From: Nemertoderma westbladi
Lineage: Eukaryota; Animalia; Xenacoelomorpha
Reading direction: 5' to 3'
Length of the DNA: 62,423 nt
Assembly: GCA_032718475.1 (NCBI GenBank)
Contig: JAUCBJ010000041.1
Span: 1 to 62,423, forward strand
Position numbers and translations under genes: made by a program. Below, piece after piece: positions 3,618-54,444 of this stretch. Positions within the stretch are counted from its first letter, which is position 1. Each line of letters opens with the position of its first letter. The notes beneath the pieces are model-generated. The model saw only the letters and a program-made list of their open reading frames with translations, was not told the origin of the DNA and searched no databases.

Positions 3618-3699
3618 GGGGTTGATTGGGGTAGGCAGCGACGCCCGCTCGCCTAAATATAAACTCATTATAATATGGATAAACTCATATATAGCAGAT

Positions 3700-5109: not shown

Positions 5110-6334
5110 TGCAAAAGCTTTTGCTGAATTGTCCGGTTATTTTTCCTTATTTTTCCCGTAAAATACTCTGTAGTTGGTTTACCAGGCATAAAAAGGCCGT
5201 GTCCTTGCTGTACTGGTGTTTTAGCGGACATAAAAGCTATTTCTTCTGTATTTGTACTTTAGAGGACATAATCCGTAATTCCGTGACGTAAAAGCTCGAT
5301 ACTCTTGAAAACAGTGTCGCTACCATGACGACGGCTAGCAGCTGATATTGCCATGTCGACGTTTCTTTGTTTCTTTGTTCTCTCGTTGTTCAGGTTGACC
5401 AATCAGAGCGTTTGTTGTCTCTGTGTTAGAGGTGTATACAGAAACTCAGTAGTTCAGTGTTATGTTTTGCCCAGAGCCTAAGAACCGGCTTTTGGCACCT
5501 CCGTGTTTTCAGTTTTTAGTCTTACACTAGTAGGCTTAATTATAAGGACATATATCCGTTATCTGCATATTACATACTGATGTCTGATGTCTGCATACTG
5601 CATACTGCATACTGCAGTACTGCATACACTGCATACTGTGTAACACTGTGCATACTTTTATATTGTTATACTGCTATTTACTGTCAGTTCTTCATAATAT
5701 GGTTGATGAATTATTATATTTGGAATAACGACAAATAACCCCGAAAACCCAATATTCTTGATATACCGAAGGTAAGAGAGAAAGGTTACAGATAAATGAT
5801 TGCGACCTATGTTGAGTGGTTTGAAGTGAATCTAATGTTATTTGATAGACCCTACATGATTCGGTCCGTGCTCCTTTTATATGTGACTAAAATCAGTGAA
5901 GATCGGCAGATCAGTGTGCAGTATTGTGCAGCATTGTGTATGAGTGAGACTGATAACGAAGCATTTCCTAAAGAATGCGCCATATATGTGAATTGTAACT
6001 AAGCCATATCGTTGTGAGTAGTTTAAGTCATAACTCTGTTTATATAGATAGAGCGCCACGTCCTAAAGGAACTGTTAATATTTCCCGAAGGTGAATAATA
6101 TTGTCAGAGATTATATAATACTGTCAGTCGAATAATACATTGGGCTTACATAGCAATAAAATTAAGCCGTCGAACCCAATCTCCCGGGTATATCCAACGG
6201 GTGAATGATCGCGCACAGATTGGTTTCGACTAGTGTAGTGAATTAAATACTTGTCATAGGCTAAAGGTGATTTATTATCTAGAAGACATCCTAATTTGGC
6301 GGGTTAAACTGCCAAAGGTCTGAAAGCGCGAACA
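5110..6334 (+). repeat. 3' LTR (diverged subfamily)
   Basis: TG...CA termini, follows the PPT, similar to 29166-30358 except a replaced block at about 5567-5665. Confidence 0.92.
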
Positions 6335-7460: not shown

Positions 7461-7808
7461 CCTGGAATATAGCGACTTAATTGAGTGGCTTGGACCAAGC
7501 CCATCAAATTTTTCTACAAATCTTACATGAGATTGCATGAAATTCCTTCATACTTAGTGGGTGAGCCAGAATTTGTATTTTTGCCTTTATTCTTTAGCTA
7601 CTACTGTACAAGAAGACAAGCGTTTTACATCTGATGCCATTGATATTCTACAAGTTGAACTGCAGTTATTCCTCAACTTTACTGCAGTACATCAGTGCCG
7701 GTCCCGGTAGTACAGTACCTAACAGCTGAAAACCTGAACACAGCAGTATATGGTATAGTAGGCCTCTTCCTCTAGGCATAGTACAGTACCAGTAGTAGAT
7801 ATATTTGG

Positions 7809-22800: not shown

Positions 22801-24296
22801 CAATATCGTTAGAATCTCCCACCTACCCAATATCGCTAGAATCTCCCACCTACCCAATATCGTTAGAATCTCCCACCAACCCAATATCGTTAGAATCTCC
22901 CACCTACCCACTATCGCTAGAATCTCCCACCTACCCAATATCGCTAGAATCTCCCACCTACCCAATATCGTTAGAATCTCCCACCAACCCAATATCGTTA
23001 GAATCTCCGACCTTTTCTATATCTCCCACCTACCCAATATCGCTAGAATCTCCTACCTACCCAGTATCGTTAGAATCTCCCACCTACCCAATATCGTTAG
23101 AATCTCCCACCAACCCAATATCGTTAGAATCTCCCACCTACCCAATATCGTTAGAATCTCCCACCTACCCAATATCGTTAGAATCTCCCACCAACCCAAT
23201 ATCGTTAGAATCTCCCACCTACCCAATATCGCTAGAATCTCCCACCAACCCAATATCGTTAGAATCTCCCACCTACCCAATATCGTTAGAATCTCCCACC
23301 TACCCAATATCGCTAGAATCTCCCACCTACCCAATATCGTTAGAATCTCCCACCAACCCAATATCGTTAGAATCTCCCACCTACCCAGTATCGTTAGAAT
23401 CTCCCACCTAGCCAATATCATTAGAATCTCCCACCTACCCAATATCGTTAGAATCTCCCACCTACCCAGTATCGTTAGAATCTCCCACCTACCCAATATC
23501 GTTAGAATCTCCCACCAACCCAATATCGTTAGAATCTCCCACCTACCCAATATCGCTAGAATCTCCCACCAACCCAATATCGTTAGAATCTCCCACCTAC
23601 CCAATATCGCTAGAATCTCCCACCTACCCAATATCGTTAGAATCTCCCACCAACCCAATATCGTTAGAATCTCCTACCTACCCAGTATCGTTAGAATCTC
23701 CCACCTACCCAATATCGTTAGAATCTCCCACCAACCCAATATCGTTAGAATCTCCCACCTACCCAATATCGTTAGAATCTCCCACCTACCCACTATCGTT
23801 AGAATCTCCCACCTAGCCAATATCATTAGAATCTCCCACCTACCCAATATCGTTAGAATCTCCTACCTACCCACTATCGTTAGAATCTCCCACCTACCCA
23901 ATATCATTAGAATCTCCCACCTACCCAATATCGTTAGAATCTCCCACCTACCCACTATCGTTAGAATCTCCCACCTACCCAATATCGCTAGAATCTCCCA
24001 CCTACCCAATATCGTTAGAATCTCCCACCTACCCAATATCGTTAGAATCTCCCACCTACCCAATATCGCTAGAATCTCCCACCTACCCAATATCGTTAGA
24101 ATCTCCCACCTACCCAATATCGCTAGAATCTCCCACCTACCCACTATCGTTAGAATCTCCCACCTACCCAATATCGTTAGAATCTCCCACATTTTCTATA
24201 TTTATGGAATCTCCCACCTACCCAATATCGTTAGAATCTCCCACCTACCCAACATCGTTAGAATTTCCAACCTTTTCTATATTGATGGAATCTCCC
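10849..24296. repeat. 27-bp satellite (GAATCTCCCACCTACCCAATATCG[T/C]TA), roughly 500 units with interspersed 18-bp variants and higher-order repeats
   Basis: Direct reading; identical ORF-track blocks recur at offsets 572, 1427, 2003 and 4721 bp. Confidence 0.98.
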
Positions 24297-28668: not shown

Positions 28669-29165
28669 GGCTATTGAAGCTATTGCTTATTTATTTATTT
28701 ATTTAAGACACTCCGTTTAATTTTAAACAATAAAATATAAACAGGGGGAACACCACCTAGGTACAAATGCCTAATTAGAAGTTATAATTAGATATATAAA
28801 ATTACATTTACAGGTGGATAAAATACACATTTAAGTAGAAAGGCAAACAAAGGCAACAGATAGAGGGATAAACGCTAAAGTACAAACAACAACAATAAAA
28901 CTACAAAAATGACGAACGAAATAAAACCAAGTAAACAGAGGATTATACCATCAAGTAAAAAAAAAACATAATTTGCTTCGAAAGCCATTGATCCTTTTTA
29001 TAAAATGATAAAATACCAAATTAAGTATTAAAAACTATTTGTTAGATTAAATATAAATAAAAACAAATAAAAAATAAATGTGGTTAATTTAAAAATCTGT
29101 TAAAATGACAATAATGGCAATAATAGATCAACATCTCTCAGTACAAATATTTACATATCGACATT

Positions 29166-30358
29166 TGTAAAAGCTTTTGCTGAATTGTCCGGTTACTTTT
29201 CCTTATTTTTCCCGTAAAATACTCTGTAGTTGGTTTAACAGGCATAAAAAGGCCGTGTCCTTGCTGTACTGGTGTTTTAGCGGACATAAAAGCTATTTCT
29301 TCTGTATTTGTACTTTAGAGGACATAATCCGTAATTCCGTGACGTAAAAGCTCGATACTCTTGAAAACAGCGTCGCTACCATGACGACGGCTAGCAGCTG
29401 ATATTGCCACGTCGACGTTTCTTTGTTTCTTTGTTCTCTCGTTGTTCAGGTTGACCAATCAGAGCGTTTGTTGTCTCTGTGTTGGAGGTATATACAGAAA
29501 CTCAGTAGTTCAGTGTTATGTTTTTGCCCAGAGCCTAAGAACCGGCTTTTGGCACCTCCGTGTTTCAGTTTTTAGTCTTACACTAGTAGGTTTAATTATA
29601 AGGACATATATCCTTTAACTGCTAACTGATCATACATACTGACTGCTGAAACATTGCAAACTCATAACAATCAGTGTTTTCATTGTTGTTTTATACTGCT
29701 ATTTACTGTCAGTTCTTCATAATATGGTTGATGAATTATTATATTTGGAATAACGATAAATAACCCCGAAACCCAATATTCTTGATATACCGAAGGTAAG
29801 AGAGAAAGGTTACCAATAACGATTGTGACTTATGTTAAAGTGGTTTGAAGTGAATCTAATGTTATTTGATAGACCCTACATGAGTCAGTCTGTGTTCCTT
29901 TTATATGTGACTAAAATCAGTGAAGATTGGCAGATTAGTGTGCAGTATTGTGCAGCATTGTGTATGAGCGAGTCTGTTAAAGAAGCAATTCCTAAAGAAT
30001 GCGCCATATATGTGAATTATAATTGAGCCATATCGTTGTGAGTAGTTTAAGTCATAACTCTGTTTATATAGATAAAGCGCCACGTCCTAAAGGAACTGTT
30101 AATATTCCCGAAGGTGAATAATATTGTCAGAGATTATATAATACTGTCAGTCGAATAATACATTAGGCTTACATAGCAATAAAATTAAACCGTCGAACCC
30201 AATCTCCCGGGAATATCCAGCGGGTGAATGATCGCGCACAGATTGGTTTCGACTAGTGTAGTGAATCAAATACTTGTCATAGACTAAAAACCGATTTAAT
30301 ATCTAGAAGACATCTTAATTTGGTGGGTTAAACTGCCAAAGGTCTGAAAGCGCGAACA
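29166..30358 (+). repeat. 5' LTR (1193 bp)
   Basis: Begins TGTAAAAGC, ends GCGCGAACA; repeated at 49946-51120 and 52813-53859; AATAAA near 30178. Confidence 0.96.
29455..29515 (+). promoter_or_regulatory. Putative LTR promoter: CCAAT, TATA-like TATATA and TCAGT initiators
   Basis: CCAATC 29455, GTATATAC 29487, TCAGT at 29502 and 29510; conserved in the diverged LTR (about 5399-5459). Confidence 0.5.
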
Positions 30359-30370
30359 TTAAAGGATATA
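30359..30370 (+). promoter_or_regulatory. Non-tRNA primer-binding site candidate TTAAAGGATATA
   Basis: Abuts the 5' LTR, lacks TGG, and is the exact reverse complement of LTR positions 29607-29618. Confidence 0.6.
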
Positions 30371-30643
30371 GCTTCTGTATTGCAGTGGGCAGTAGAGCTG
30401 AAGTACCGGCAACCGGTGCCCGGTAGGCCTGACTACCTAACCACCCGGACCGGTACCTGCAGCAGTACAGGTACAGCAGTATTATTCGATTTTGATAATT
30501 ATATACCGGTAGGCCTTAATAATTAATCAGGGAGGGCCCGCCCTGGTTTTTTATTGAGATTTTTACTTATTTCTGTCAAGTTTTATTTGTTTGTAGGCCA
30601 GTATTGAACAGAAGGCGTGTAAGCCTGATCAGATTGTACAGAC

Positions 30644-31135
30644 AATTTGTAGGCTGAGCTGTTGTCTGATTGCTGTTAAGTCTGAACGGATTGCAGTGTG
30701 TGTAGATCATCTGTCCGATTAAGTACGGTTAGGAAGTAGGGGCAGCGAACGCTGTAAGGTAAACCCCCAACTAAAGAATAAGTCGCACTACTGGGTTAGA
30801 GCGCATACTCCCTAATCATTTCGGAGTCTGCATGTCCTGTAGTTTATTTAGGCTTGAGAGTAGTCTGCCATCGTTTAGTCTGTACTTGGTTTGTGTAAGT
30901 CTGTACGGGTAGCGTATAATTTTATTTAGATAATTTGTAGGCTGGATAGTTGTCTGGCTGTTATTAGGCCTGAGCGGATTGCAGCGTGTGTAGATCACTT
31001 GTCTGATTAAGTACGGTTAGGAAGTAGGGGCAGCGAACGCTGTAAGGTAAACCCCCAACTAAAGAATAAGTCGCACTACTGGGTTAGAGCGCATACTCCC
31101 TAATCATTTCGGAGTCTGCATATACCGTAGTTTGT
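30644..31135 (+). repeat. 288-bp tandem duplication in the 5' UTR; the second unit is split by the LINE and resumes at 34306-34390
   Basis: AAGTACGGTTAGGAAGTAGGGG at 30721 and 31009; TTTAGGCTTGA.AGTAGTCTG continues after the LINE tail. Confidence 0.85.
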
Positions 31136-34100
31136 ATTCTGTAAATTCTACAATTATCTAAGTTTAAACTCGCAACGATAACTCCATTAATTCTGTTTCT
31201 ATCATGGTAGTAATACGTCGTGACTTGGTTTTCTTCATACCAGTAGTCGCGGCGTTGCTCCTACTGGTCAATGCACTCGTATTTCCAGTGTCTGAAATAA
31301 TGGCGGAGAAACAAACTCAACGACGGCGAGGATGTGCTGATAAGGAATATTCCCTAAGATGCATGTATCAGAATGTGCGCTCGCTGAATGAGAATAAAGT
31401 GTATGCTGTCAAAGAGGACATAATAGCTAGAACGCTAGACTTAGTATTCATAGTCGAGCTATGGAACAACGTTGAGTTCTTGAATCTCGCCACTCCGGAG
31501 GATTACTATAATCGGCATTTGACGAGGAAAGATCGTACTGGAGGAGGGGTGGCCGTTATAGCGCACAACTCGGTGAAACTGCGAAAAATACCCATCCCGG
31601 CTAATGAACAGTTTGAATCCTTGCTTCTAGCAACCGACAAAGACTTGTTCATGGTCGTTCATCGCCTCCCAAATAGTAAAAGGTATCCAACTTCAATTGT
31701 CGAGTATAAGAAAATTATTGATAGTACATTGGAAGACATGTCGTTAAAGTTCGACACAATTACTATTTTTGGCGATGCGAATTTATGGTTAGAATCTGAC
31801 AAGTCGTTCCAATACCTATTGGAGACACACGGTTTCGATTTCAAGAAGACGGGTCCAACGCATAAGGACGGTCATACTCTAGATTTTGTAGCTAGCCTGG
31901 GCTATAAAATCGCTGATGTTGATCTGGATCCTATAGACGAAGTGTTTAGTGATCATGCCAGTATGCGATGGATATCGAATCTGTCCAGAAATGTCTCTAA
32001 ATCTTATGAGGAACGGAGAAGTTTTCGAGCCTGGAAAAACTTTGATAAGGATAAATTTATAACGGAGCTGAAAGTTAATGGATTGGATAAGAGTAGTGGA
32101 GATTTAACATGCAAAGGGTTTGAGGCGTGGGTAAAGAACCTGAGGAATTTGTTTGAACGACATGTTCCCATGAAAGAGAAGATTGTAAAGATCAACACTA
32201 AACACTCGAAAATCAGGGAGGAAGATAGGGAGGGGATCCAGACTAAACGGAAGGAGAAGAGACGGTGTGAACTTGCGTTTCACAAAGAACGGACTGAGCA
32301 GAACAAAGTTAATTTAAATATAGCAAAGTCGGACCTAGCGAAATTGCTTCGCGATTCTACAAGGGCGTTTTACTGCGATTATATTAATACCAATTCGACT
32401 AACTCAAAACTTCTGTGGAAACAGTTCAAAAGGTTATTGGGAAAGGGAGGAAACCTTGTTTTACCGACTAAGCATGGCAATAGTGCTGAGTTGGCAACAA
32501 AGTTCTCACATTTTTTCACTGAAAAAATTAACACTATTATGTTGACATTCAATACGAGCAGTCGATGTAATAATCTCCCAAAATTGTATAAAACAGACTT
32601 TTGTGAATTTCAGCCTTTTCAAGAGGAGGACTTAGCTCAACTCATAAGGAAGATGTCAAATGCAACTTGCGAGCTGGACTGTATGCCAACGCCTTTATTT
32701 AAATCTGTAATTCCCATTGTTATTCAGCCCTTAACGATGTATATAAACATGGTTTTAGCAGATGCGGAATTCCCAGCCTTTCTTAAACTGTCTATCGTAA
32801 GACCTCTCTTAAAGAAACCGGAGTTGGATGCTGAGATATTAAAAAATTATCGACCAGTGTCAAACCTTAGTTTCTTATCTAAGGTAGTTGAGAAAGTAAT
32901 ACTTTATAGAGCTACACCACAGCTAGCTTTTCACCAGACACAGTCTGGTTACAGACGGCACCATTCCACTGAAACTGCTAATCTATTTCTTCTAAATAAA
33001 TTTCTTAAGGGAATAGAAAATCAACAAGTTACTTTGTGCTCCTATATTGATTTGAGTGCGGCGTTCGACACTGTCCATCACAAAAACCTTATATTTAAGC
33101 TCAGTAAAGAATTTGGGTTCAATGGTGCTGCACTTAATCTCTTTGAGTCCTATTTAGCTGACAGACATCAATGCGTGAAAATTGATGAGAGTACATCTGA
33201 TAAAACATTGCTTCAAACCGGCGTGCCTCAGGGCAGTATCCTTGGGCCAGCACTTTATAATGCGTATATGACTGACCTGTTCTGGCGTGTGGATGCATTA
33301 GGAGTGAAAGGTGCTAACTATGCTGATGACACACAATTCTTTGTGACTGGATATGCTGATGATATAGAGACCCTGAAGACTCGTATCACTGCTGTGCTAC
33401 ATATTGTTGCTGATTGGATGGACGTTAATCACCTACAAATTAACCCAGATAAAACTGAACTGATTGTATATGGCACCAAACAACAAAGAATGAAGATACC
33501 TCTGAATGCTAGAACAATTGTATACAGAAACGTTAAGATAGATTTCTCTGATAAGGTTAAATCTCTCGGAGTTGTGTTTGATAGTGAATTGAAATTTAAA
33601 GATCAGATAGTAGCAACAGCAGCGAAATCGAAATATTATATCCGGTCTTTGTATAAAATTCGGCCTTACCTTACAACTTCAGCTCTAGAAACCCTAGTCC
33701 ACGCATTCATAACCAGCAGAATCGACTATTCAAACGCTGTCCTTAAAACATCCGCTAAATCAGTAGTTAAACATCTACAAATGATACAAAACAGTGCTGC
33801 AAGATTGGTTACTCATTCTCCGCGATATCGTGTTATCAATGGACAATACAAGTACACCTCGGCAACGGCAATGCTGAAATCCCTTCACTGGCTGCCCATT
33901 GAATCACGGATTAATTATAAGCTTGCTTGTATCACATTTAAATGTCTGTCTGGGACTGCCCCGACTTATTTGCGCAATGAAATATCTATCCTTGAGGATA
34001 CCCGTACGTTGCGATCCAGCAATCTCTCAAAGCTTTCTGTCCCACTTGTGAAAAACACCCTAGCATCGAAGAGCTTCTACTCGTTTGCCCCTCGTTTGTG

Positions 34101-34305
34101 GAATAAACTACCGCCATCGACCCGATCAACTGAATCCATGATGACCTATGACTCATTTAGGCGCGAACTGAAAACCCTTTTGTTTACCGGTAATTGTAAA
34201 TTAGATTAGTGCGGCAGCTGCAGGCGCCCTGATAAGAGTGTAAATACTCCCTAAGGGCGCCTGCAACACCAAATACAAATTTCATTTATTATTTATTATT
34301 TATTA
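31136..34305 (+). mobile_element. L2/CR1-group non-LTR retrotransposon inserted in the BEL 5' UTR
   Basis: APE-RT ORF, 3' stem-loop (TGCAGGCGCCCT 34219-34230 / AGGGCGCCTGCA 34254-34265), (ATTTATT)n tail, at most a 3-bp TGT duplication. Confidence 0.92.
31204..34209 (+). CDS. APE endonuclease-reverse transcriptase (LINE ORF2), intact, 1001 aa
   Basis: YQNVRSL, GGGVAV, GDAN, PTHKDGHTLD, SDH (APE); YRPVSNLSFLSK, DLSAAFDTV, GVPQGSILGP, YADD (RT); LHWLP C-terminal block typical of L2/Crack. Confidence 0.95.
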   Translation: MVVIRRDLVFFIPVVAALLLLVNALVFPVSEIMAEKQTQRRRGCADKEYSLRCMYQNVRSLNENKVYAVKEDIIARTLDLVFIVELWNNVEFLNLATPEDYYNRHLTRKDRTGGGVAVIAHNSVKLRKIPIPANEQFESLLLATDKDLFMVVHRLPNSKRYPTSIVEYKKIIDSTLEDMSLKFDTITIFGDANLWLESDKSFQYLLETHGFDFKKTGPTHKDGHTLDFVASLGYKIADVDLDPIDEVFSDHASMRWISNLSRNVSKSYEERRSFRAWKNFDKDKFITELKVNGLDKSSGDLTCKGFEAWVKNLRNLFERHVPMKEKIVKINTKHSKIREEDREGIQTKRKEKRRCELAFHKERTEQNKVNLNIAKSDLAKLLRDSTRAFYCDYINTNSTNSKLLWKQFKRLLGKGGNLVLPTKHGNSAELATKFSHFFTEKINTIMLTFNTSSRCNNLPKLYKTDFCEFQPFQEEDLAQLIRKMSNATCELDCMPTPLFKSVIPIVIQPLTMYINMVLADAEFPAFLKLSIVRPLLKKPELDAEILKNYRPVSNLSFLSKVVEKVILYRATPQLAFHQTQSGYRRHHSTETANLFLLNKFLKGIENQQVTLCSYIDLSAAFDTVHHKNLIFKLSKEFGFNGAALNLFESYLADRHQCVKIDESTSDKTLLQTGVPQGSILGPALYNAYMTDLFWRVDALGVKGANYADDTQFFVTGYADDIETLKTRITAVLHIVADWMDVNHLQINPDKTELIVYGTKQQRMKIPLNARTIVYRNVKIDFSDKVKSLGVVFDSELKFKDQIVATAAKSKYYIRSLYKIRPYLTTSALETLVHAFITSRIDYSNAVLKTSAKSVVKHLQMIQNSAARLVTHSPRYRVINGQYKYTSATAMLKSLHWLPIESRINYKLACITFKCLSGTAPTYLRNEISILEDTRTLRSSNLSKLSVPLVKNTLASKSFYSFAPRLWNKLPPSTRSTESMMTYDSFRRELKTLLFTGNCKLD

Positions 34306-35672
34306 TGTTTAGGCTTGATAGTAGTCTGTCAGTGTTTGGTCTGTATTTTGTTTGAGTAGTTTGTACGCGTAGCGTAATATTTATTATTCAGAGTTTATGC
34401 GATTATCCGCAACATTCATTCCCCAAGTTTGTTCCTACAGTAATTGTGTTTGTTATACATACCGCTATAGTTAAATTAACCCCGGTACTACACGGGCTGC
34501 TCGGCATAGGTAAAGACTGGTGATTTTGTGCATCGGTCACTCCAGCAGATGCCGTGGTTCTTTTAGCTGTTCAAGTATATTTAACTACTGATTATCTGTT
34601 GTACAAGTACTCGTACCTAATTTAGGGTTTAGTGTACAGTACTTTCCGAAGTAATTAGTGTAGGCATTATATTTGTGTTGTAAAGTGGTTGATAGGCACA
34701 TTCGATTAGCTCTATTAACTTCTAGGTAGGAACACTCCGTGATACATAACGTAGAACCTATAGCGATACGGCTATAGGTCGTCAGGCGGTGGTATTTTCC
34801 TATCTAGACAACGCAGTGTATTTACTACTACTTATTATTTCAAATACCGTAGTACCCTGTCCGTTGTAATAACCAGATTTCTAACCCTTTGTTAGGCTGG
34901 TTAGTAGACTTCTTGTAAAATTACCCTAAAAATTCGTATTTTGTGTTTTTTGTAAATTTTTGTGTTTATTTAGAGATTGTAATCTCACCCGAATTGTACG
35001 TAATTTGTAGTATTAAGTAACTTAGGTAAATTAGAATTATTTGTTTTAGTGTCCTATAGGTAACACTTCACTGAAAGCGCACCGCTTTGTGTAGTGATTA
35101 CTCCCCAGAAATAATAACATTTATTTCAAACATTGACAAAACCCATTAAAACGGGTATATATATATTATAAATCAACTCAAACGATTTATAAATAGTAGG
35201 CCTGCCATATAACAATTAGGTCTTAATATCAGTTGGACTACTGCTTAAATCACGGTAATACGGTAAGTTAAAGTAACCAAGTAACCCTTAAAATTCAGAA
35301 ATTCAATTATTTAAAATAATTGATATACCGGTACTTACGATAGGCCTATTATCTTTATTTCAATAAATTTAGGCTGAAATTATACCGGTACTTGTAATTA
35401 ATTCTAGTCCAGAATTATATATACTACAAACTGTAAGCTGTATACCGGTATTCCCGATAGGCCTATTATATATTTATATATATTTGTGCTAAAATTATAC
35501 CGGTATTCGGTTATATACTATAAGCATACCGGTATTCTAATATATTATATATATATCACGCTACACTGAGTAGCAGTACCGGTAATTAATTACTAGGCTA
35601 GCAGTCAATACTGAGTTACTAGACTTGCTCAGACTGTAATACAGCAGTAGACATTCAACGGTATACATAGTC

Positions 35673-38600
35673 ATGTCTGATACTAAGCAGAACCTGTCAG
35701 ACAGTATATTAGATGTAACTATCTGCGACTCAGATAGAGATGTACAACCGTCTGGTCGTAAATCCAGTTCACCTCCCACTGTGAGGAAGGTCATCCCTCC
35801 AGTAGTAATAACAGAACCTAGGCTAGTCCAACATCGTAGGTCTATCATAGGCACCCGAGCTCAGGTCAAGCGGGACCAAGAAGCAGCGGAACAGCAACAA
35901 CCCGCGAGTCAAGAGCTTGTTACTCAGCGGCCCAGCAGCTCCAGTAGTGAAGATACTGTAGAGCTGACACCCGAGCGCGGAGCAGAGATGACGGATGCTG
36001 TTTATACGGATCCCCTTCTCATCCTTCCTGCAGCCGTACTCGTTAGGTTATTGATCGCGGTGGAAGAACACCAGATCGATTGGGCGAGAAGTCAACGACC
36101 AACTAGAGATAGTTATGCGGGATACACGAGGGAAGAATTGAAGTCTATTGTCGAGTCGCAATGGAACTTCCCCGGACCCGGACTCCCGTTTGATTTATCA
36201 GAAGCTGCCTGGGAAGACATGCACCGGATGGGAGTAGCCAAGGAAACCATCGATCCAGCTGTATGGAAGAGGTCCGCAGCCGGATACGCACAGGGATTCT
36301 TCAGCTCTATGGAGCGAGTAGAAAGACAACTATTTAAACAACCTCAAGGACCTCAAGAGCAGGAACAGCTGCTTTATCAAGTTAGAGAAAGAGTGCTGCG
36401 AATTAGGCTAATCTTATCCGCCTTTGAGGAGGCTTCTAAAAGAAGACAAGACACGTCGTTGCAAGTTGCCGTAAAGACTTGGCTTCAAAAGGTGAGACGC
36501 CAGGTTCAAGGAGCAGCTCAGTGGAAAGCTCAGTTTGAGGAGCGCTCAACCCATGGAGAATCGACGGACGCTACTTTTTCCCAAGTGGAAAGTGAAGCGA
36601 CGGCAGAGAAACCGCATAAGAAGGATGCCATTGATATCTACCTGTCAGACTATCAGCGTTTTGTGGGAGATGAAGAGTTGAGGAGAAGGCTAGAGGGACT
36701 TAGCCCTAATAGCGAAGGAGCCAAACTTGTGTTAGATGCGATTGATGTGGATAGGTTAGCGGCGAACCAAGCTAAATTCGATGAACAACTCCGCATCGCT
36801 AGAGAAAAGGAAGAACAAGTAAGGAAAAAACGTATAGAAGATAGAAAGACAGCAGCAGCGGCAGTGGCAGCGGCAGAAGCGGAAAGAAAGGCGGCAGAGG
36901 CAGTGGCAGAGGCAAAAGCGGCAGCTGCAGCAATAAAAGCGGCAGCGGCAGAGGCAAAAGCGGCAGCAGCAGAAGCGGAAAGAAAGATAGCAGTGGCAGA
37001 AGCAGAACGGAGGGCATCTGAAGAGACAACCCAACTAGAGTTGGAAAATCTTCAAGACAGGCAAGATAACTTTAATAAACAGTTAACAGCTAGTAATATG
37101 CAGATGATGAATCGATCTACTCCCAAACGACAAGGTTATACATCATCTGAGGAAGGTAATACCACCGACACTGAAGGCGGAGGAAATCGATCCCGCCTAA
37201 GCAGACGTAAAAGAACATTCCACCGTCAGAAATTGCCTGATTTGCCTCCAGCTGTTAGAAGGCAACTAAATAACACCAACTTAGAGAGTACAGAACCCAC
37301 AGACCAAATAATTACAATAGAAAGACTCCCTACTATAGTAGATGAGCCTGAAATAAGTAGGCCTGTTCTTGAAATCACCCCTTCGGTAATAGATACACCT
37401 GTGCTCCCTGAAGCTACCTATAAATTCCCTCTGCATAGCACTAAGCTACCTGTGCCCCGTAGAACTGCCCAGGAGACAGTTCAGGTCCTGGACCCCGAGC
37501 GAAATATTCCAAATTTGTCGCCCGTTGTCCCTCGTCTGCCCGCTACGACGTTGGCGGATCCCGTTTCGGCGGTTGATTGGGTAGACGAGAGACGGCGGGG
37601 GATGGATATTCTCCTCGGAGAGATGGAGAATCGGATACGCTCCTCCCAATAGGTCCGAGAGTTGGAAGGGACTGTCCAACATTTAAAGGGAACAGTAAGG
37701 GAAAGTAAGTTAGAGTTGCAAGAAGTGCAGCAAAATATCGCGCTAGAGCGCGATAAATTAGTAAATTTACAAAAGGGTATACCACCACCCTCTGTAACAA
37801 TGTGTCAACCCGTTAGGTCTGAAGTATCTCATGCGCAAGGTGTGGAGCCTACACGCATTTATACTGCTAGCGAAGTAGAAACTCCTATAGTGAACCCTAT
37901 TAAGGGTAATTATAGACCTGTTGATAATGATATTCCCTATAGAACTGATCATAATCCGAGAAATTTATATACCGATAACTCGATATTAAATAGCACGATG
38001 GCCCAAGAAAGTTTTACGTGTCAAATGGCTAGAACCGAAGCCCGGCAAGCGGTAAAGGTTGGAGAGATCGTCAAGTTCAATGGAGATGAGATGAAATGGT
38101 TACCTTTTAATGAATATTACAAAGATAACATACAGAACTCTGTACTATCTAATGGAGAAAAACTTAGATACCTCATCGAGTGCTTGGAAGGATCTCCCAA
38201 GTTAATGGCGTTAAAGTTTATTGGACATCCAGACGGATTAAGACAAGTTTGGGATACACTAAACATCAGGTATGGTAATAGGAATAACATCGCTGGGTAC
38301 TTATATGCAAAGTTAGTAGCGCCCCGAAAGTTTATTAGTAGTGGAATTATCGAGTTTTCCGATGAGATCCAGGAGATCTGCAGACAATTAGATTGGCTAG
38401 GTAAGTCTCATGAGTATCAGAACACTATGGTTATTAGAGCAGTGGCTTCTACTTTACCGAAAGGTGGAGTAGGTACACGCTGGGATAAGAAAGTGTTATA
38501 TATGATGGAACAACAACGGCGAGACCCTACCATGGCTGATCTCATGTCATTCCTAGATGGAGAAGTGAAATTACAACTCCTCAAGCAGTCCAGAGAGAAA

Positions 38601-41600
38601 ACACTGGAAAACAAGGTATGTGAAAAACCCGTCTCTAGGAGAAAGGTAACACCAGTATGTTATACCGATGACGGCGAAAGCCAGACTTCTCAAGGAGAAG
38701 ATAGCGGGAAGGACACGGATAGATCTTATTACGTGAATAAAATGCCTAAAGATCAGGTAAGTAAATTTAAGTCTCGAACAAATGACAGGAGGGAACAGGT
38801 AAGAAAAACTCCTCCCACGTCTCCCAAGAGAATTCAGGTGAGAAAACCCGAAGAAAAGTCAAGTGTACACAATGTGACTCAAAACAAGGTAAGTAACATC
38901 AAACCAAAATGTGCGCTGTGCGACGGGACCCACCATTTGAATAGGTGTGATGAATTTCTAAAGAAATCATTAACAGAGAGACGCGAAGTCATGTGGGATA
39001 AGCGGTTATGTTATAATTGCCTCAGACAAGGACACCAACGACGAACCTGTTTCTCTGACATAAGGTGTGCAAAGTGTGGTGCGAAACATCATACCTTGTT
39101 GCACGCTGAATTCGATCGAAATAGTCCGAATCAGGTAAGTGATTCCGAGCTACATGTCCAATTCAGTGATGTGAACGACACTGATCAATCTGAGATGGAA
39201 GGATTCTATACAGACGAGTTCTCCGACGAAAACGAATCCTGTTACATGATAAATACCGCAGTGTATCGAGCACTCACATATGAAAAAGATACAGAGAACG
39301 ACTTTACTTTAACTACTTCTGAACGACAACCATCTTGGAAAGAGCCATCTTCCAATGTAGGGATCCGAGAGTTTCCTGTGGTGCAGGTAAGGGTGCACGG
39401 ACCTAAACGGAGTTATATAGTGAACGCCCTCCTGGACTCCGGCAGCACAGGAACATTCATCGATAAAGAGCTAGCCGAAAATATATTTGCTGGACAACCC
39501 AAGTTCCAAACTAAGCTCAACATGTCAGGCATTATGCAAGTTTGGAAATCTACAATAACAGCTGATTATTATGTAGGAGCGTTGTCCACCCCCCAGGACG
39601 AATTAGGAGAACACAGCATAAGGTCAGTGAAAATGGTGGCTATAAAGAACTTCGCTACTACTCAAGCAGACCTTTATGATTGGGACGAGGATGAGAGCAT
39701 CCAACATCTTAACATACCTCGATTCCAGACTGATTATCCTGGAGTGCAAATACTCATCGGCCAAAACGCGCATGAGGCGCTGGAGACGTTAGAGAAACGG
39801 CCTGCTCAACCGCAGCCCCTACAGACCTATGCGGTAAGAACTAGAGTAGGTTGGTACTTTACTGGCCCTTCCCGTAGAACACTCAGAGAAAGACTACCGC
39901 AAGAGAGAGTCTACCAGGTGAGTGAATGGGAAGATGATGCTAGTGAGGGAGACGATTCAACTGAGGGAATTCCATACTCCTCAGATAACGACGATGTTCA
40001 CCAGCTTTTTGATGAGGAGAATACCATCGATCTCCTTAAGGAAAACGAGGCTTGGCAAAACCAAGTGAACTTATGTCAACTTCTCTATCCATCTGAACGA
40101 GAAGCTTATAACGACGAGTTAAATGACGTCATTGAGCGTCATAATGCCAAGATTCGGGATGAACATGCTGTACGATTCTTTACGCAAGAGGCGGTAGAGC
40201 CCAATTCCTACGATAAAGCCTTGTCGGTGGAAGAGGAAAGGGCCAAGCAGATCCAAGAGACAACTACATGTTTCCTCAAAGATCAAGGTAGGTATGAAGT
40301 CGGTTTACCTTTCCGCAAGAAAGAACCGAAGTTCATCAATAACAGACCTTTGGCGGAAAAAAGAATCACGCAACTCCATCGACGCCTTACGGCTAATTCA
40401 TCAGCTAAAGCAATGTATCAAACACAGCTGGAAAAATTCATTAATAAGGGATACGCGGAGAGAGTACCGGAAGAAACACCTGTGACTGAAAGAACGTATT
40501 ATTTAACTCACCATTACGTTCCTAAACCCGGCAAACCAAATGAAGTAAGAGTAGTGTTTGATGGCTCCGCTCTTTACATGGGTCAATCCCTTAACTCTGA
40601 ATTGTTACCCGGACCCAACTTGCTTCAATCTTTGTTGGGAATTATTTTAAGATTGAGACAATATTCGATTGCTTTCGCCTCCGATATAGAAGGCATGTTC
40701 TTACAAGTCAAAGTGTTGGATAGGGATCGGGATAGCTTACGATTTCTATGGTGGCCCGAAGGAGACCTCAACCAGAAACCGGTGGAGTACTGGATGACCA
40801 TCCAGGCCTTTGGGATAATCTCAAGCCCTTCCAACGCCTGTTCGGTAGTGCGTACCACTGCAGAGGACAACAGAGAGGCCTTCTCTAAGGAAGTGATCGA
40901 CAACATCAAAAGAGACATATACATGGACGACAATCTGAAGTCCCTTCCATCAGTTGAGGAAGCCATTGAGGTCGCTAAGGGAACGGTAGAGTGCTTAAAA
41001 AGAGGTGGATTTCGATTAACCAAATTCACCAGCAACTCCCGTGAGTTTCTGGAGTTGATCCCTGCGGAAGATCGAGGAGCAAAAGATCTCGATTTGATCA
41101 AAGATGATCTGCCAGAAACCAAGACACTCGGCTTGAAATGGGACACAGAGCGAGATATCCTGTTTTTCCAACTAAAACAGCGAGATAATCCAGTTCGAAC
41201 CAAACGGATTTGCTTAAGTATACTGAGCACTTATTTCGATCCATTGGGATTTATTAGCCCAGTTATATTGATTGCTCGAAGTTTGGTACAACAAATGTGG
41301 CTTGAAAACCACTCATGGGACGATCCACTTAAGGGAGAATTATTGAAGAAGTGGATGAAATGGGAAGATTCTCTACCGGCTATCGAGGAGTTTATAATTT
41401 CCCGTTCATATTTTGGTCATGTTCTCCCTACGTATTCCTATCAACTCCATGTGTTTGGAGACGCCAGCGATATGGGAATCGGTATAGTAGCCTACCTAAG
41501 AGTGGAAACTCCGGATGGAATCAAAGTAGCCTTGGTTACTTCTAAGGCATTAATCAACAACAAGTTGAAAGTTCCTCGAGCGGAGTTAAAAGCGGCTCTA

Positions 41601-43806
41601 TACGCTACAGCCATCGGCCGGAATGTAACCGAACAGATTGACTATACATTAGAGAAAACTGTCTATTGGACCGACGCTTTACTCGTGTTAGAGTATATAA
41701 CCAATGAAGTCTGTCAGTTCAGCGTCTTCGTTACCAACAGGGTAGCCATCATACTTAGTCGCACGACGATGGACCAATGGAGACATTGCCCCGGAACGAT
41801 TAATCCAGCAGACATCGCGTCCCGAGGAGCGACTCCCAAGGAATTGGTAAATACTCCCGAATGGTTAGGAGGACCCGACTTTCTCTACAGAGAAGAAGAA
41901 GAATGGCCTCCCCATCTCACAACAGCAGAGATCAGACAGGCCAAGGGAGCGGAGAAAGTTAAACCCAAAACTCGAGCGAGTAAATCGAAGTTGTTTAAAC
42001 CTGCGGTTGATCTATCTGTCTTATTTACTTCCGGAGATGATGCTTTGGATCAGAAACCTACCGCCACGACGAAAGAAGTCTTGGAAATCCGTGACAAGGA
42101 TTGGAAATCTGGAATACCAGATATTTCGCAAGGACTCTCACCTCTCTTGCAGAGAGCGATACGTCACTACAGCTCCTGGAATCGGCTCTGTAAAGCCATC
42201 ACCTATTTAAAACGATGTTTTCATCATCGTTACTCCGGGACAAAGACTCATAGTGATGAGGCTCCATCAACATCTGCACGAGTCCATGTTGTTAAAGATC
42301 TTCCACAATACAAGATATCCGACAGGTTTCTAAAAGAGAAGATCAGTTACCAGGAGCATGATGAAACCAACAAACAGATGCTGAGACTCCTACAATGCTA
42401 TGAGGATTCCGATAAGTATTTCCTGTTATTAAGAAATCCACAGATGCGCTTAAGGGATCGCTTCTCTAGTACCATGATAGATGGGTTAATACGTGTTGGA
42501 GGTCGGCTTACCAACGCCCCGTTATCCTTTGACACTAAGTTTCCCATACTCATTAGGAATCTTGATATACAAATCAAGATGATTGTAGATGTTCATAGCA
42601 AACTGTATCATGCTGGTAGAGAACGAGTTCTGAGCGAAATTCGAACTCGCTACTATTTTTATAAACCCCGTAGGGCTCTGAACCAAGTTCTTAGGAACTG
42701 CATACCCTGTAGGAAAGCATTCAGTAGGCCTTTAACACAGCGAGAGGCAGAATTACCTAGGGAAAGAGTAAGCTTCTATGAACCCACCCTTTACTAATAC
42801 CGGTGTGGATTTATTTGGCCCTATTGAAGTATATCGTGCCCGGACTATAGTCAAGAGATGGTGTGTCATCTTCGTTTGTATGACTTGTAGAGCTATCCAT
42901 CTCGATATGGTAAACGATCTATCCACCAACAGCTTCGTGTTGAGTTTACGACGACAGATCGCTCGCTTCGGAACCAGTAACACGATGAGATCGGATAAGG
43001 GAACGAACTTCATTGGCGCCAACAACGAAATTCAAGCTTACGTAAAGGACTGGAACAAAAGACAGGTGGACGATCAGCTAAGGATAACAGCGTCTAGCTG
43101 GACCTTCAACGCCGCCGACGCCCCTTGGTGGGGAGGAAGTTGGGAGAGATTGATTAGGAGCGTGAAGACTGCGTTCCACTTTATTGTGCCTTGTCGCGCT
43201 TATCTCACCGACGAACTATTGCGGACGTTAATGGAGGAAATCGCCGCCTATCTCAACGAAAGACCGCTTATGCCAGTCTCTTCAAATCCTGATTCCCTGG
43301 AAGCGCTAACACCCGCGCACTTTCTACTGAAGAAACCCGTAGCCATGCTCCCACGATCGGAGATCACAGACGGAGACGAGTACTGCCGTCGAACCTGGCA
43401 ACTTATGCAGTTGCTATCCCGTCGTTTCGCTGACCATTTCGAGAAACATTACCTGCCCACTCTACAACTTCGAACTAAGTGGTTTGCGCAGCAAGAAAAC
43501 GTCAGCGCTGGAGACATGGTGCTTATTGTGGACCCCGATCTCCCACGTAAGCGATGGCAAACAGGACGTATCATCGAGACTTATATCTCGAGCGATGGTT
43601 TGGTGCGATCAGTAGAGCTCGTCGTCATGCGGCGGAACTTTAAGAAACCAGGGATAGTCTTTGAGACTCAACAGCTCAATCGCCCAGTGGGACGTTTATG
43701 TTTACTGGAAAGAGACAGAGAGCTCTCCGGAAACTATGGAAGGCAAGAAACTCTTCCCACGACCACTTCCCTAATCCAACCGACATCTAGGGACTCCCCA
43801 ACTTAA
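35673..43806 (+). pseudogene. gag-pol: BEL/Pao gag-pol polyprotein interrupted by an in-frame TAG (37650-37652) and a 1-nt frameshift near 42785
   Basis: 35673-37652 and 37662-42797 share a frame; KFNGD gag motif, three knuckles, LLDSGS, YMDD, LHVFGDAS, PRAEL, YWTD, HxxxxH..CxxC; TGVDLFGP, SDKGTNF and WERLI continue in 42778-43806. Confidence 0.93.
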
Positions 43807-49867: not shown

Positions 49868-49945
49868 CTGTTTAGAGTATCTTTATGTTTTAGAAACTGT
49901 GATTTTTATATTTTATAGACTGAAAATCCCATTTTCTGGGAGCGG

Positions 49946-51120
49946 TGTAAAAGCTTTTGCTGAATTGTCCGGTTACTTTTCCTTATTTTTCCCGTAAAAT
50001 ACTCTGTAGTTGGTTTAACAGGCATAAAAAGGCCGTGTCCTTGCTGTACTGGTGTTTTAGCGGACATAAAAGCTATTTCTTCTGTATTTGTACTTTAGAG
50101 GACATAATCCGTAATTCCGTGACGTAAAAGCTCGATACTCTTGAAAACAGCGTCGCTACCATGACGACGGCTAGCAGCTGATATTGCCACGTCGACGTTT
50201 CTTTGTTTCTTTGTTCTCTCGTTGTTCAGGTTGACCAATCAGAGCGTTTGTTGTCTCTGTGTTGGAGGTATATACAGAAACTCAGTAGTTCAGTGTTATG
50301 TTTTTGCCCAGAGCCTAAGAACCGGCTTTTGGCACCTCCGTGTTTCAGTTTTTAGTCTTACACTAGTAGGTTTAATTATAAGGACATATATCCTTTAACC
50401 TACGACACTGCTAACTGATCATACATACTGACTGCTGAAACATTGCAAACTCATAACAATCAGTGTTTTCATTGTTGTTTTATACTGCTATTTACTGTCA
50501 GTTCTTCATAATATGGTTGATGAATTATTATATTTGGAATAACGATAAATAACCCCGAAACCCAATATTCTTGATATACCGAAGGTAAGAGAGAAAGGTT
50601 ACCAATAACGATTGTGACTTATGTTAAAGTGGTTTGAAGTGAATCTAATGTTATTTGATAGACCCTACATGAGTCAGTCTGTGTTCCTTTTATATGTGAC
50701 TAAAATCAGTGAAGATTGGCAGATTAGTGTGCAGTATTGTGCAGCATTGTGTATGAGCGAGTCTGTTAAAGAAGCAATTCCTAAAGAATGCGCCATATAT
50801 GTGAATTATAATTGAGCCATATCGTTGTGAGTAGTTTAAGTCATAACTCTGTTTATATAGATAAAGCGCCACGTCCTAAAGGAACTGTTAATATTCCCGA
50901 AGGTGAATAATATTGTCAGAGATTATATAATACTGTCAGTCGAATAATACATTAGGCTTACATAGCAATAAAATTAAACCGTCGAACCCAATCTCCCGGG
51001 AATATCCAGCGGGTGAATGATCGCGCACAGATTGGTTTCGACTAGTGTAGTGAATCAAATACTTGTCATAGACTAAAAACCGATTTAATATCTAGAAGAC
51101 ATCTTAATTTGGTGGGTTAA
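49946..51120 (+). repeat. 3' LTR copy 1 (lacks its terminal ~27 bp, has a 9-bp insertion at 50399-50407)
   Basis: Follows PPT GGGAGCGG; matches the 5' LTR up to GGTGGGTTAA. Confidence 0.95.
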
Positions 51121-52814
51121 TCATCTTGCACACCGATGTGTGGATATACAAACACAGGAAGAGTGCATGGTGTTCGTTCATTTTGCACACCGATGTGGGG
51201 GTATACAAACACAGGAAGAGTGCATGGTGTTCATCTTGCACACCGATGTGTGGGTATACAAACACAGGAAGAGTGCGTGGTGTTCATCTTGCACACCGAT
51301 GTGTGGATATACAAACACAGGAAGAGTGCGTGGTGTTCATCTTGCACACCGATGTGGGTGTATACAAACACAGGAAGAGTGCGTGGTGTTCATTTTGCAC
51401 ACCGATGTGTGGGTATACAAACACAGGAAGAGTGCATGGTGTTCGTTCATCTTGCACACCGATGTGGGTGTATACAAACACAGGAAGAGTGCATGGTGTT
51501 CATCTTGCACACCGATGTGGGGGATATACAAACACAGGAAGAGTGCGTGGTGTTCATCTTGCACACCGATGTGGGTGTATACAAACACAGGAAGAGTGCA
51601 TGGTGTTCATCTTGCACACCGATGTGGGGGTATACAAACACAGGAAGAGTGCGTGGTGTTCATCTTGCACACCGATGTGTGGATATACAAACACAGGAAG
51701 AGTGCATGGTGTTCATCTTGCACACCGATGTGGGTGTATACAAACACAGGAAGAGTGCATGGTGTTCGTTCAATGCACACCGATGTGTGGGTGTATACAA
51801 ATACAGGAAGAGTGCATGGTGTTCATCTTGCACACCGATGTGGGGGTATACAAACACAGGAAGAGTGCATGGTGTTCGTTCATCTTGCACACCGATGTGG
51901 GGGTATACAAATACAGGAAGAGTGCATGGTGTTCATCTTGCACACCGATGTGGGGGTATACAAACACAGGAAGAGTGCATGGTGTTCATCTTGCACACCG
52001 ATGTGGGGGTATACAAACACAGGAAGAGTGCATGGTGTTCATCTTGCACACCGATGTGGGGGTATACAAACACAGGAAGAGTGCATGGTGTTCATCTTGC
52101 ACACCGATGTGTGGATATACAAACACAGGAAGAGTGCATGGTGTTCGTTCATCTTGCACACCGATGTGGGTGTATACAAACACAGGAAGAGTGCATGGTG
52201 TTCATCTTGCACACCGATGTGTGGATATACAAATACAGGAAGAGTGCATGGTGTTCGTTCAATGCACACCGATGTGTGGGTGTATACAAATACAGGAAGA
52301 GTGCATGGTGTTCATCTTGCACACCGATGTGGGGGTATACAAACACAGGAAGAGTGCATGGTGTTCGTTCATCTTGCACACCGATGTGGGGGTATACAAA
52401 TACAGGAAGAGTGCATGGTGTTCATCTTGCACACCGATGTGTGGGTATACAAACACAGGAAGAGTGCATGGTGTTCATCTTGCACACCGATGTGTGGGTA
52501 TACAAACACAGGAAGAGTGCATGGTGTTCATCTTGCACACCGATGTGGGGTGTATACAAACACAGGAAGAGTGCATGGTGTTCGTTCAATGCACACCGAT
52601 GTGTGGGTGTATACAAATACAGGAAGAGTGCATGGTGTTCATCTTGCACACCGATGTGGGGGTATACAAACACAGGAAGAGTGCATGGTGTTCGTTCAAT
52701 GCACACCGATGTGTGGGTGTATACAAATACAGGAAGAGTGCATGGTGTTCATCTTGCACACCGATGTGGGGGTATACAAACACAGGAAGAGTGCATGGTG
52801 TTCATCTTGCACAC
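51121..52814. repeat. 53-bp (with ~57-58-bp variants) minisatellite, about 31 units
   Basis: TCATCTTGCACACCGATGTG(T/G)G..TATACAAA(C/T)ACAGGAAGAGTGC(A/G)TGGTGT repeated. Confidence 0.97.
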
Positions 52815-53859
52815 TTTAGAGGACATAATCCGTAATTCCGTGACGTAAAAGCTCGATACTCTTGAAAACAGCGTCGCTACCATGACGACGGCTAGCAGCT
52901 GATATTGCCACGTCGACGTTTCTTTGTTTCTTTGTTCTCTCGTTGTTCAGGTTGACCAATCAGAGCGTTTGTTGTCTCTGTGTTGGAGGTATATACAGAA
53001 ACTCAGTAGTTCAGTGTTATGTTTTTGCCCAGAGCCTAAGAACCGGCTTTTGGCACCTCCGTGTTTCAGTTTTTAGTCTTACACTAGTAGGTTTAATTAT
53101 AAGGACATATATCCTTTAACTGCTAACTGATCATACATACTGACTGCTGAAACATTGCAAACTCATAACAATCAGTGTTTTCATTGTTGTTTTATACTGC
53201 TATTTACTGTCAGTTCTTCATAATATGGTTGATGAATTATTATATTTGGAATAACGATAAATAACCCCGAAACCCAATATTCTTGATATACCGAAGGTAA
53301 GAGAGAAAGGTTACCAATAACGATTGTGACTTATGTTAAAGTGGTTTGAAGTGAATCTAATGTTATTTGATAGACCCTACATGAGTCAGTCTGTGTTCCT
53401 TTTATATGTGACTAAAATCAGTGAAGATTGGCAGATTAGTGTGCAGTATTGTGCAGCATTGTGTATGAGCGAGTCTGTTAAAGAAGCAATTCCTAAAGAA
53501 TGCGCCATATATGTGAATTATAATTGAGCCATATCGTTGTGAGTAGTTTAAGTCATAACTCTGTTTATATAGATAAAGCGCCACGTCCTAAAGGAACTGT
53601 TAATATTCCCGAAGGTGAATAATATTGTCAGAGATTATATAATACTGTCAGTCGAATAATACATTAGGCTTACATAGCAATAAAATTAAACCGTCGAACC
53701 CAATCTCCCGGGAATATCCAGCGGGTGAATGATCGCGCACAGATTGGTTTCGACTAGTGTAGTGAATCAAATACTTGTCATAGACTAAAAACCGATTTAA
53801 TATCTAGAAGACATCTTAATTTGGTGGGTTAAACTGCCAAAGGTCTGAAAGCGCGAACA
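52813..53859 (+). repeat. 3' LTR copy 2 (lacks the first 146 bp, has the intact CA end and TSD)
   Basis: Matches 29312-30358; followed by ACATT. Confidence 0.95.
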
Positions 53860-54444
53860 ACATTTATAAAGCCCGTACACACTATAAATAAAATGAACAG
53901 TAACATTATTGGTAAATATTAAATAAATAACAGTAACACTTTACGTTATGCAAATCGAATGTATAAAATAATTGTACTGTACGTACTGTGTACGTTCATT
54001 ATAAATAAAATCAAGCACCATAGTGTTGTAATTAAAAGGTACGTAGCAGATAACGGACAAATAAAATACAATATAAATATAATAAAATAATAATAAATAA
54101 ATAATAAAATAAATAATAAAATTGGCTGGAATAGATTAAAAACGACCGTGATTACCGTACAGGTAATATATATTGCACGGGTTTGGCCGTTACAGTACTT
54201 AGTCGATGCTGTCCCCCCATTGGCTAATACCCCTGTTGGCACCCTTTGCCCCCCTCTGAAGTGCTTCCCTTCGCCCTTGCTGTTCTCTCTTGGTTAGGGG
54301 TTTGGCCCCTGACCCCTATTGTGTGCTTCCTTCCCACTCTTATTGGGATGGCACGAGTTGGTTAATTGCCCAATCTCGTGGCTCCCAATATTGCTTATCG
54401 GCTAATAACTTTATGGGGTGTTGGCGGGATTGAATAAGCTAACA
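53860..54444 (-). repeat. Putative 3' LTR of the minus-strand element, interrupted by the 24.7-kb insertion (remainder expected left of 29165)
   Basis: Minus strand reads PPT GGGGGGGAG (54453-54445) then TGTTAG; candidate other ends are TGTTAG at 29040 or TGTTAA at 29098. The partner LTR is not in the window. Confidence 0.5.

What the first reader, a model, noticed from the sequence alone, without database searches (positions are those of the whole stretch)
29607..30370. BEL/Pao retrotransposon that may self-prime reverse transcription from its own LTR
Seen: the 5' LTR is followed with no gap by TTAAAGGATATA (30359-30370), not a TGG-starting tRNA PBS. This is the perfect reverse complement of TATATCCTTTAA inside the LTR (29607-29618). 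The polarity puts the primer 3' end against the U5 terminus, and a possible U5/leader stem flanks it (ACTGCC 30332 / GGCAGT 30388). Known: self-priming is described for Tf1/sushi-group Ty3/gypsy elements, whereas BEL/Pao elements are generally described as tRNA-primed; I know of no self-priming BEL. Inference: the transcript folds back and is cut after 29618 to give the primer. Unlike Tf1, the predicted start (about 29504-29512) lies ~100 nt upstream of the primer, so the mechanism would be a variant.
Basis: partly seen in the sequence, partly recalled or inferred. Interest (0 to 1): 0.85.

Follow-up and report, generated by a model that had tools for sequence, protein, structure and literature searches.

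The report
Self-priming BEL/Pao retrotransposon, intron-free primer
This animal jumping gene of the BEL/Pao group has no tRNA landing site; the 12 letters there pair exactly with 12 letters in its own terminal repeat, and related copies carry matching changes on both sides, so it likely starts copying itself with its own RNA, as its marine relatives likely do with a primer that is predicted to be joined by splicing.

Summary
Observation confirmed: 30359-30370 directly follows the 5' LTR and is the exact reverse complement of 29607-29618 (15 of 20,000 shuffles). The element is BEL/Pao. Among 36 relatives with an intact polyprotein frame, 18 have a PBS complementary (10-16 nt) to a sequence that exists only once a GT..AG intron in the LTR is removed (validation 12 of 29, 0.62 expected), each family with different letters. 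L014 holds the joined form. The window's family has a contiguous primer, probably through intron loss. Best reading: Tf1-like self-priming (0.8). Not supported: the GGCAGT stem arm, which looks private to this copy. Unsettled: the start at 29504-29512; folding weakly favours a start near 29600-29608. No RNA evidence. Nine literature searches found no self-priming BEL. The scan had noted splice-built BEL primers before, on other genomes.

The parts
29166..30358 (+). 5' LTR (1193 bp, TG...CA)
   Evidence: self-BLAST; ends and flanks
29161..29165 (+). left target-site duplication ACATT
29607..29618 (+). predicted self-primer, 12 nt, contiguous
   Evidence: exact complement of the PBS; shuffles 15 of 20,000
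29619..29690 (+). hypervariable block starting at the primer's 3' end (predicted cut and strand-transfer point; also repeat-like in LTR-A)
   Evidence: alignment; joints starting at 29617-29621; 7-bp repeat in LTR-A
30178..30183 (+). only AATAAA of the LTR; likely poly(A) signal
30359..30370 (+). primer-binding site without TGG
   Evidence: variants 30359 T>A, 30363 A>C, 30364 G>A
31168..34209 (+). RT-bearing ORF of LINE type with an AT-rich tail, likely a nested insertion in the leader
   Evidence: RVT_1; sequence
35640..37652 (+). N-terminal gag region, ends at an in-frame TAG
37653..42797 (+). gag (DUF1759, three Cys-His knuckles), protease, RT (YMDD), RNase H, integrase zinc finger
   Evidence: PF03564, PF05380, PF17921; motifs read
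42772..43806 (+). integrase core and DUF5641, in another frame
   Evidence: PF18701
48351..49046 (+). extra 231-aa ORF of unknown function
49938..49945 (+). polypurine tract
49946..51120 (+). 3' LTR copy C, cut at its 3' end; 12-mer at 50387; differs from the 5' LTR only by a 9-nt insertion right after the 12-mer
51121..52814 (.). 53-bp tandem array inside the 3' LTR
52813..53859 (+). 3' LTR copy D, cut at its 5' end, identical to the 5' LTR over 1047 nt; 12-mer at 53108
53860..53864 (+). right target-site duplication ACATT
5110..6334 (+). 3' LTR of a sister element (about 92% identical); variant primer at 5551-5562; its PBS lies outside the window

Best explanation
The element is a BEL/Pao retrotransposon whose primer-binding site is complementary to its own LTR, and it likely primes reverse transcription with its own RNA instead of a tRNA. 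Shown: a 12-nt duplex ending flush with U5, matching variants on both sides, and the same arrangement with other letters in relatives. Inferred, by analogy with Tf1: (1) the RNA starts at or a few bases before 29607 (about 60%; a start near 29504-29520 with a longer leader about 25%); (2) 29607-29618 pairs with 30359-30370; (3) the element's RNase H cuts after 29618 and RT extends the 3' end into U5; (4) plus-strand synthesis copies the primer back into the PBS, which would explain why the PBS tracks the LTR. In most readable relatives the primer would first be joined by splicing of an LTR intron; this family likely lost that intron when a spliced RNA was copied.
For: Exact, flush 12-nt complement. 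PBS variants 30359 T>A and 30363 A>C are the two changes predicted from LTR-A: X1 29% and 27% of summed depth (45 and 39 contigs), X3 38% and 27% (21 and 19), X2 43% and 34% (55 and 48); chance that the top two of 36 possible substitutions are these is 1/630. No TGG at the PBS; no tRNA gene in the window; no Rfam match at gathering level in 29100-31200. Relatives with LTR ends fixed by two LTR copies: spliced-junction complements of 11, 12 and 10 nt in L040, L030, L042 (0, 0, 1 of 500 shuffles). A rule drawn from these, applied to 29 other intact-frame loci, gave 12 hits of 10 nt or more against 0.62 expected. Across 16 families own primer/PBS match averages 11.4 nt, cross matches 1.9 nt. L014 carries the joined form of the L016 junction twice and no donor form; L051 has a contiguous 12-nt complement. 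The duplex is in the lowest-energy fold (pair probability 0.7-0.85) when the RNA starts at 29603-29608.
Against: No RNA data: no start, cut or primer was seen. The two PBS variants are not phased to each other or to an LTR; X1 and X2 are one sample and may be the window's source; X5 had no PBS cover; 30359 A may be inflated by 3'-LTR flanks; the listing filter hides some variants. A third variant, 30364 G>A (4-7%), has no known LTR partner and would break a pair. No TATA box lies 30 nt before 29607; a CCAAT box (29455), a TATA-like site (29489) and TCAGT motifs (29502, 29510) suit an upstream start, a TATA-like TATAAG at about 29597 would put the start downstream of the primer, and a possible intron 29586-29712 would contain the 12-mer. 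A TATA at -31 was seen in only 1 of 16 relatives (L030). 18 of 36 intact-frame relatives gave no spliced hit; L059 fails the perfect-match test. The window's RT is a long branch in an unrooted quick tree, so common origin with the relatives is not shown.
Confidence: 0.8

Rival explanations
1. Priming in trans: a separate short or spliced LTR-derived RNA (for example from solo LTRs or from cleavage at the 5' poly(A) signal) supplies the primer to an unspliced genomic RNA. This would also explain how relatives keep their LTR intron.
For: Fits all sequence data equally well; many relatives keep the intron although only the joined form pairs; the family is highly repeated.
Against: Tight per-subfamily matching of primer and PBS is simpler in cis; the cis fold is favourable for a start near 29606; Tf1 works in cis (PMC7175516 passage).
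Confidence: 0.1
2. The pairing is a structural or regulatory helix (packaging, splicing or translation switch), and a host RNA, such as a tRNA half, primes.
For: Half-tRNA priming exists in copia lineages (PMC6317226); the host tRNA set could not be checked (no genome).
Against: The PBS differs between subfamilies and among 15 distinct family sequences, always following the LTR; a host primer would reset it each cycle; the helix ends at the U5 boundary within 0-5 nt.
Confidence: 0.07
3. Chance complementarity in an AT-rich LTR.
For: Other inverted repeats of 10-27 nt occur in the region; the best of those inside the LTR is no better than shuffles (56 of 300).
Against: Position-constrained chance 15 of 20,000; predicted variants found; recurrence in relatives.
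Confidence: 0.02

Closest known systems
Tf1/Tf2/Tj1 of fission yeasts and the Tf1/sushi and Tcn1 groups (Ty3/gypsy)
   Same: PBS complementary to 11-12 nt of the element's own LTR-derived RNA. In Tf1 the first 11 bases pair with the PBS and RNase H cuts between bases 11 and 12 (PMC7175516 passage; PMC4600332 passages).
   Different: Different superfamily; no start or cut shown here; in most relatives the primer spans a splice junction, which the passages read do not describe for Tf1.
TAR lineage, including Houba and Osr-1 (plant Ty1/copia)
   Same: Self-priming predicted from at least 10 nt of complementarity starting 0-5 nt after the LTR (PMC6317226 passages); the window's element meets that criterion.
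   Different: Copia, plants; contiguous primer only, as that screen used blastn against the LTR.
Belpaoviridae / BEL-Pao as described by ICTV
   Same: Domain order gag-PR-RT-RH-IN, LTR about 1.2 kb, PPT, animal host (PMC8742986 whole text).
   Different: ICTV describes an 18-nt PBS for host tRNA-Arg or tRNA-Gly; this element and the relatives with defined LTR ends have none.

Membership tests
BEL/Pao (Belpaoviridae) | Pao-type pol and gag domains in PR-RT-RH-IN order | tested here: met
   PF05380 E 3e-36, PF03564, PF17921, PF18701; 120 of 120 listed homologues carry PF05380
BEL/Pao (Belpaoviridae) | LTRs TG...CA, PPT, target duplication | tested here: met
BEL/Pao (Belpaoviridae) | 18-nt PBS for tRNA-Arg or tRNA-Gly (ICTV description) | tested here: not met
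   PBS starts TTAA or ATAA, no TGG; this departs from the description but not from the protein-based family placement
BEL/Pao (Belpaoviridae) | assignment to a named clade (Sinbad, Suzu, Dan, Flow and others) | not tested
   no reference elements in the tree
Tf1-type self-priming (mechanism) | PBS at the U5 boundary complementary to at least 10 nt of the own LTR | tested here: met
   12 nt, offset 0
Tf1-type self-priming (mechanism) | complementarity kept through changes on both sides | tested here: met
   LTR-A and PBS variants, unphased; across families
Tf1-type self-priming (mechanism) | primer is the first bases of the transcript | tested here: inconclusive
   folding favours it; promoter motifs do not; no RNA reads
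Tf1-type self-priming (mechanism) | RNase H cleavage releases the primer | not testable with these tools
   needs biochemistry
Tf1-type self-priming (mechanism) | U5/leader stem next to the PBS | tested here: inconclusive
Tf1/sushi group (lineage) | Ty3/gypsy chromovirus-type pol | tested here: not met
   Pao-type domains

The most novel reading that the evidence does not exclude
A large marine branch of BEL/Pao elements uses the host spliceosome to assemble its reverse-transcription primer from a few bases before and 4-7 bases after an LTR intron, which makes splicing a licence for replication; the window's family is a derived, intron-free form that carries the primer ready-made, and its primer and PBS are caught changing together.
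Probability: 0.6. Interest if true: 0.85.

Novelty: new variant of a known kind. Interest (0 to 1): 0.75.

Why it matters
It would make BEL/Pao the third LTR superfamily with tRNA-independent priming and contradict the ICTV description of the family. It would explain why many BEL elements have no assignable PBS: tRNA scans fail, and LTR self-complement scans fail because an intron splits the primer. A primer built by splicing would tie retroelement replication to host RNA processing and raises a testable puzzle: how the intron survives reverse transcription. The window's family is a simple, contiguous case with two natural primer/PBS pairs for swap tests on short RNAs.

Tried and rejected
No whole genome is held, so copies could not be collected and the host tRNA set was not compared. 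No RNA holder listed; X4 is only guessed to be RNA and contigs cannot show starts. The LTR-end pattern found nothing in metagenome contigs; the RT query found no relative in viral contigs. A spliced-junction complement in the window's own LTR was sought and is not better than the contiguous one (7-8 nt against 12). A loose scan of 300 nt before gag had little power (7 of 36 loci at p<=0.05, two of them palindromes). One search had a bug at source ends (false hit L046, inflated nulls); one search is the corrected count; the family matrix uses hits that reproduced, plus L034 and L042. The 24-nt inverted repeat 29565-29588/30271-30294 is not beyond chance. An 8-nt complement of 29492-29499 to 30373-30380 was noticed post hoc and has no matching splice signals; not used. 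The tree is the quick one, without outgroup, 68 rows (13 loci dropped for short matches). The four 12-mers were absent from the seven supplement files of PMC13524379, which list tRNA 3' ends; a weak test. The Atlas gave no usable hit for the extra ORF. Papers read for a BEL primer that said nothing on it: PMC3118150, PMC554778, PMC8220671, PMC5443660, PMC5445492, PMC3601003 (passages only).

Full report
Observation. The 12-mer at 29607-29618 and the 12 bases at 30359-30370 are exact reverse complements, with no 13th pair, and the 12-mer occurs only in LTR copies. The LTR runs 29166-30358. Its end is fixed by two other LTR copies and by the ACATT target duplication around 29166-53859. A 12-nt complement starting 0-5 nt after the LTR arose in 15 of 20,000 shuffles. 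There is no TGG at the site, no tRNA gene in the window and only one sub-threshold Rfam match in 29100-31200.

The element. Pfam gives DUF1759, Peptidase_A17, the integrase zinc domain and DUF5641, and the translation shows three Cys-His knuckles, protease, YMDD and RNase H motifs: BEL/Pao. This copy has an in-frame stop at 37650-37652, a frame change near 42770-42800, a LINE-type ORF in its leader and a tandem array in its 3' LTR. A sister element ends in the LTR at 5110-6334, whose 12-mer differs at two positions. The host is an animal without close relatives among listed proteins; no genome is held.

Covariation in the family. Contigs of four runs were laid on 30316-30412. Three variants were listed, all in the PBS: 30359 T>A (29%, 38%, 43% of summed depth in X1, X3, X2), 30363 A>C (27%, 27%, 34%) and 30364 G>A (7%, 4%, 6%). 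The top two are the predicted ones; 1 in 630 by chance among 36 possible substitutions. Limits: depth is not copy number; variants are unphased; X1 and X2 are one sample, possibly the source, X3 is a second; X5 did not cover the PBS; the filter hides variants near contig ends; the third variant has no known partner.

Relatives. A profile search of metagenome contigs returned the best 80 of 605 confirmed loci, at about 34-45% RT identity. Four families had LTR ends fixed by two LTR copies; none had TGG at the PBS and none had a contiguous complement above 9 nt. Joining the ends of a GT..AG intron inside the LTR gave 11, 12 and 10 perfect pairs in L040, L030 and L042 (0, 0 and 1 of 500 shuffles); L059 failed the perfect test but forms a -17.2 kcal/mol duplex with a wobble and an internal loop, against -4.4 unspliced. 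I fixed a rule from these (PBS starting GT or AT 0-5 nt after CA or TA; primer ending 3-8 nt into exon 2; intron 50-450 nt) and applied it to the 36 of 80 loci with an intact frame of 5.3 kb or more; the other 44 were left out. Validation loci: 12 of 29 reached 10 nt or more, 0.62 expected (ten families, since L021, L023, L024 are one). Discovery loci: 6 of 7, 0.17 expected. Most donors are GTAAGT. Of the 18 misses, ten had 14 or fewer candidate junctions, mostly because the contig lacks LTR sequence; L014 and L051 have contiguous complements of 11 and 12 nt; L070 pairs when its donor and acceptor are taken from the two LTR copies; L010, L050, L053, L057 and L069 are unexplained misses. Across 16 families each PBS matches its own junction (mean 11.4 nt) and not the others (mean 1.9; only L039 and L077 share); the diagonal is selected on match, so the shuffle counts are the real test. 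L014, 86% identical to L016 in the LTR, holds the joined junction in both copies and no donor form: either a spliced transcript or an intron-free element. The trait is spread across the quick tree; the window's RT is a long branch with uncertain place.

Mechanism. Tf1's first 11 bases pair with the PBS and RNase H cuts after base 11 (PMC7175516 passage). The same scheme fits here, with the cut after 29618. Copying the primer during plus-strand synthesis would carry any change into the PBS, which is what the variants look like (inference from the general LTR replication cycle). The window's LTR has no better spliced complement, so its primer is contiguous; loss of the intron by copying a spliced RNA is the simplest path, not shown. 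The start is open. Folds of the window's RNA give the duplex probability 0.7-0.85 for starts at 29603-29608, 0.47 at 29600, 0.23 at 29595 and 0 for 29492-29590, at a cost of 6-9 kcal/mol. This is weak: 800-nt folds, no pseudoknots, no splicing, no nucleocapsid. Promoter-like motifs point elsewhere (CCAAT 29455, TATA-like 29489, TCAGT 29502 and 29510). In 9 of 15 relative families the match begins at an A, six times after a pyrimidine; one has a TATA at -31.

What is known. ICTV describes an 18-nt tRNA-Arg or tRNA-Gly PBS for Belpaoviridae (PMC8742986, whole text). Self-priming is described or predicted for Tf1/sushi, Tcn1 and copia TAR/Houba/Osr-1 (PMC6317226 passages; PMC4600332 passages). 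Nine searches bearing on BEL primers (listings, with passages read for the papers named under Tried and rejected) found no self-priming BEL and no splice-built primer. The library lacks most subscription papers and Repbase notes, including the original Suzu and Tf1/sushi papers, so prior mention cannot be excluded. After my own analysis, the scan's notes showed six earlier reports of self-priming or splice-built primers in BEL/Pao on other genomes, none on this stretch or this family; they are unchecked and not counted as evidence. One (e1-7809694) mentions intron-less copies, which matches my reading.

Verdict. The feature is real and passed a prediction made in advance. Self-priming 0.8; new variant of a known kind; interest 0.75.

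Noticed in passing
window 30387-30459: This copy has G where laid contigs have A: near 100% of depth at 30395, 30418, 30422, 30459, and by loose ends at 30387, 30388, 30392, 30409. A cluster of sense-strand A-to-G changes would fit ADAR editing of a double-stranded leader in the RNA that made this copy (inference).
   Followed up: partly
window 49946-53859: The 3' LTR is present as two overlapping partial copies (about 1 kb duplicated) around a 1.7-kb array of a 53-bp unit; copy C has a 9-nt insertion just after the primer.
   Followed up: partly
window 31168-34330: LINE-type RT ORF of 1013 aa with a hydrophobic N-terminus, nested in the leader between about 85-bp imperfect repeats (30847-30930, 34308-34392).
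   Followed up: no
window 48351-49046: 231-aa ORF in the 6-kb 3' non-coding region; homologous but frameshifted in the sister element (3652-4203); no Pfam or Atlas hit.
   Followed up: partly
window 29796-30282: Repeated CCGAAG|GT donor-like units (29796, 30114, similar at 30224) suggest small introns in the R/U5 region that would shorten the loop between primer and PBS.
   Followed up: no
window 55780-60790 (-): A second, unrelated BEL-type element with gag and protease but apparently no RT.
   Followed up: no
window 10875-24273: 13.4-kb array of a 27-bp unit with long open frames on the + strand.
   Followed up: no
window 7782-8564: Intron-free RTRAF/C14orf166-like ORF; best relatives are animals at 47% identity or less, so the host has no close relative among the listed hits.
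   Followed up: partly
L001-L080: In 16 families the predicted primer ends in AC or AT and the PBS starts 0-5 nt after the LTR end (this start was part of the rule); L025, L035, L048 share a PBS start whose complement begins right at an acceptor in L025.
   Followed up: partly
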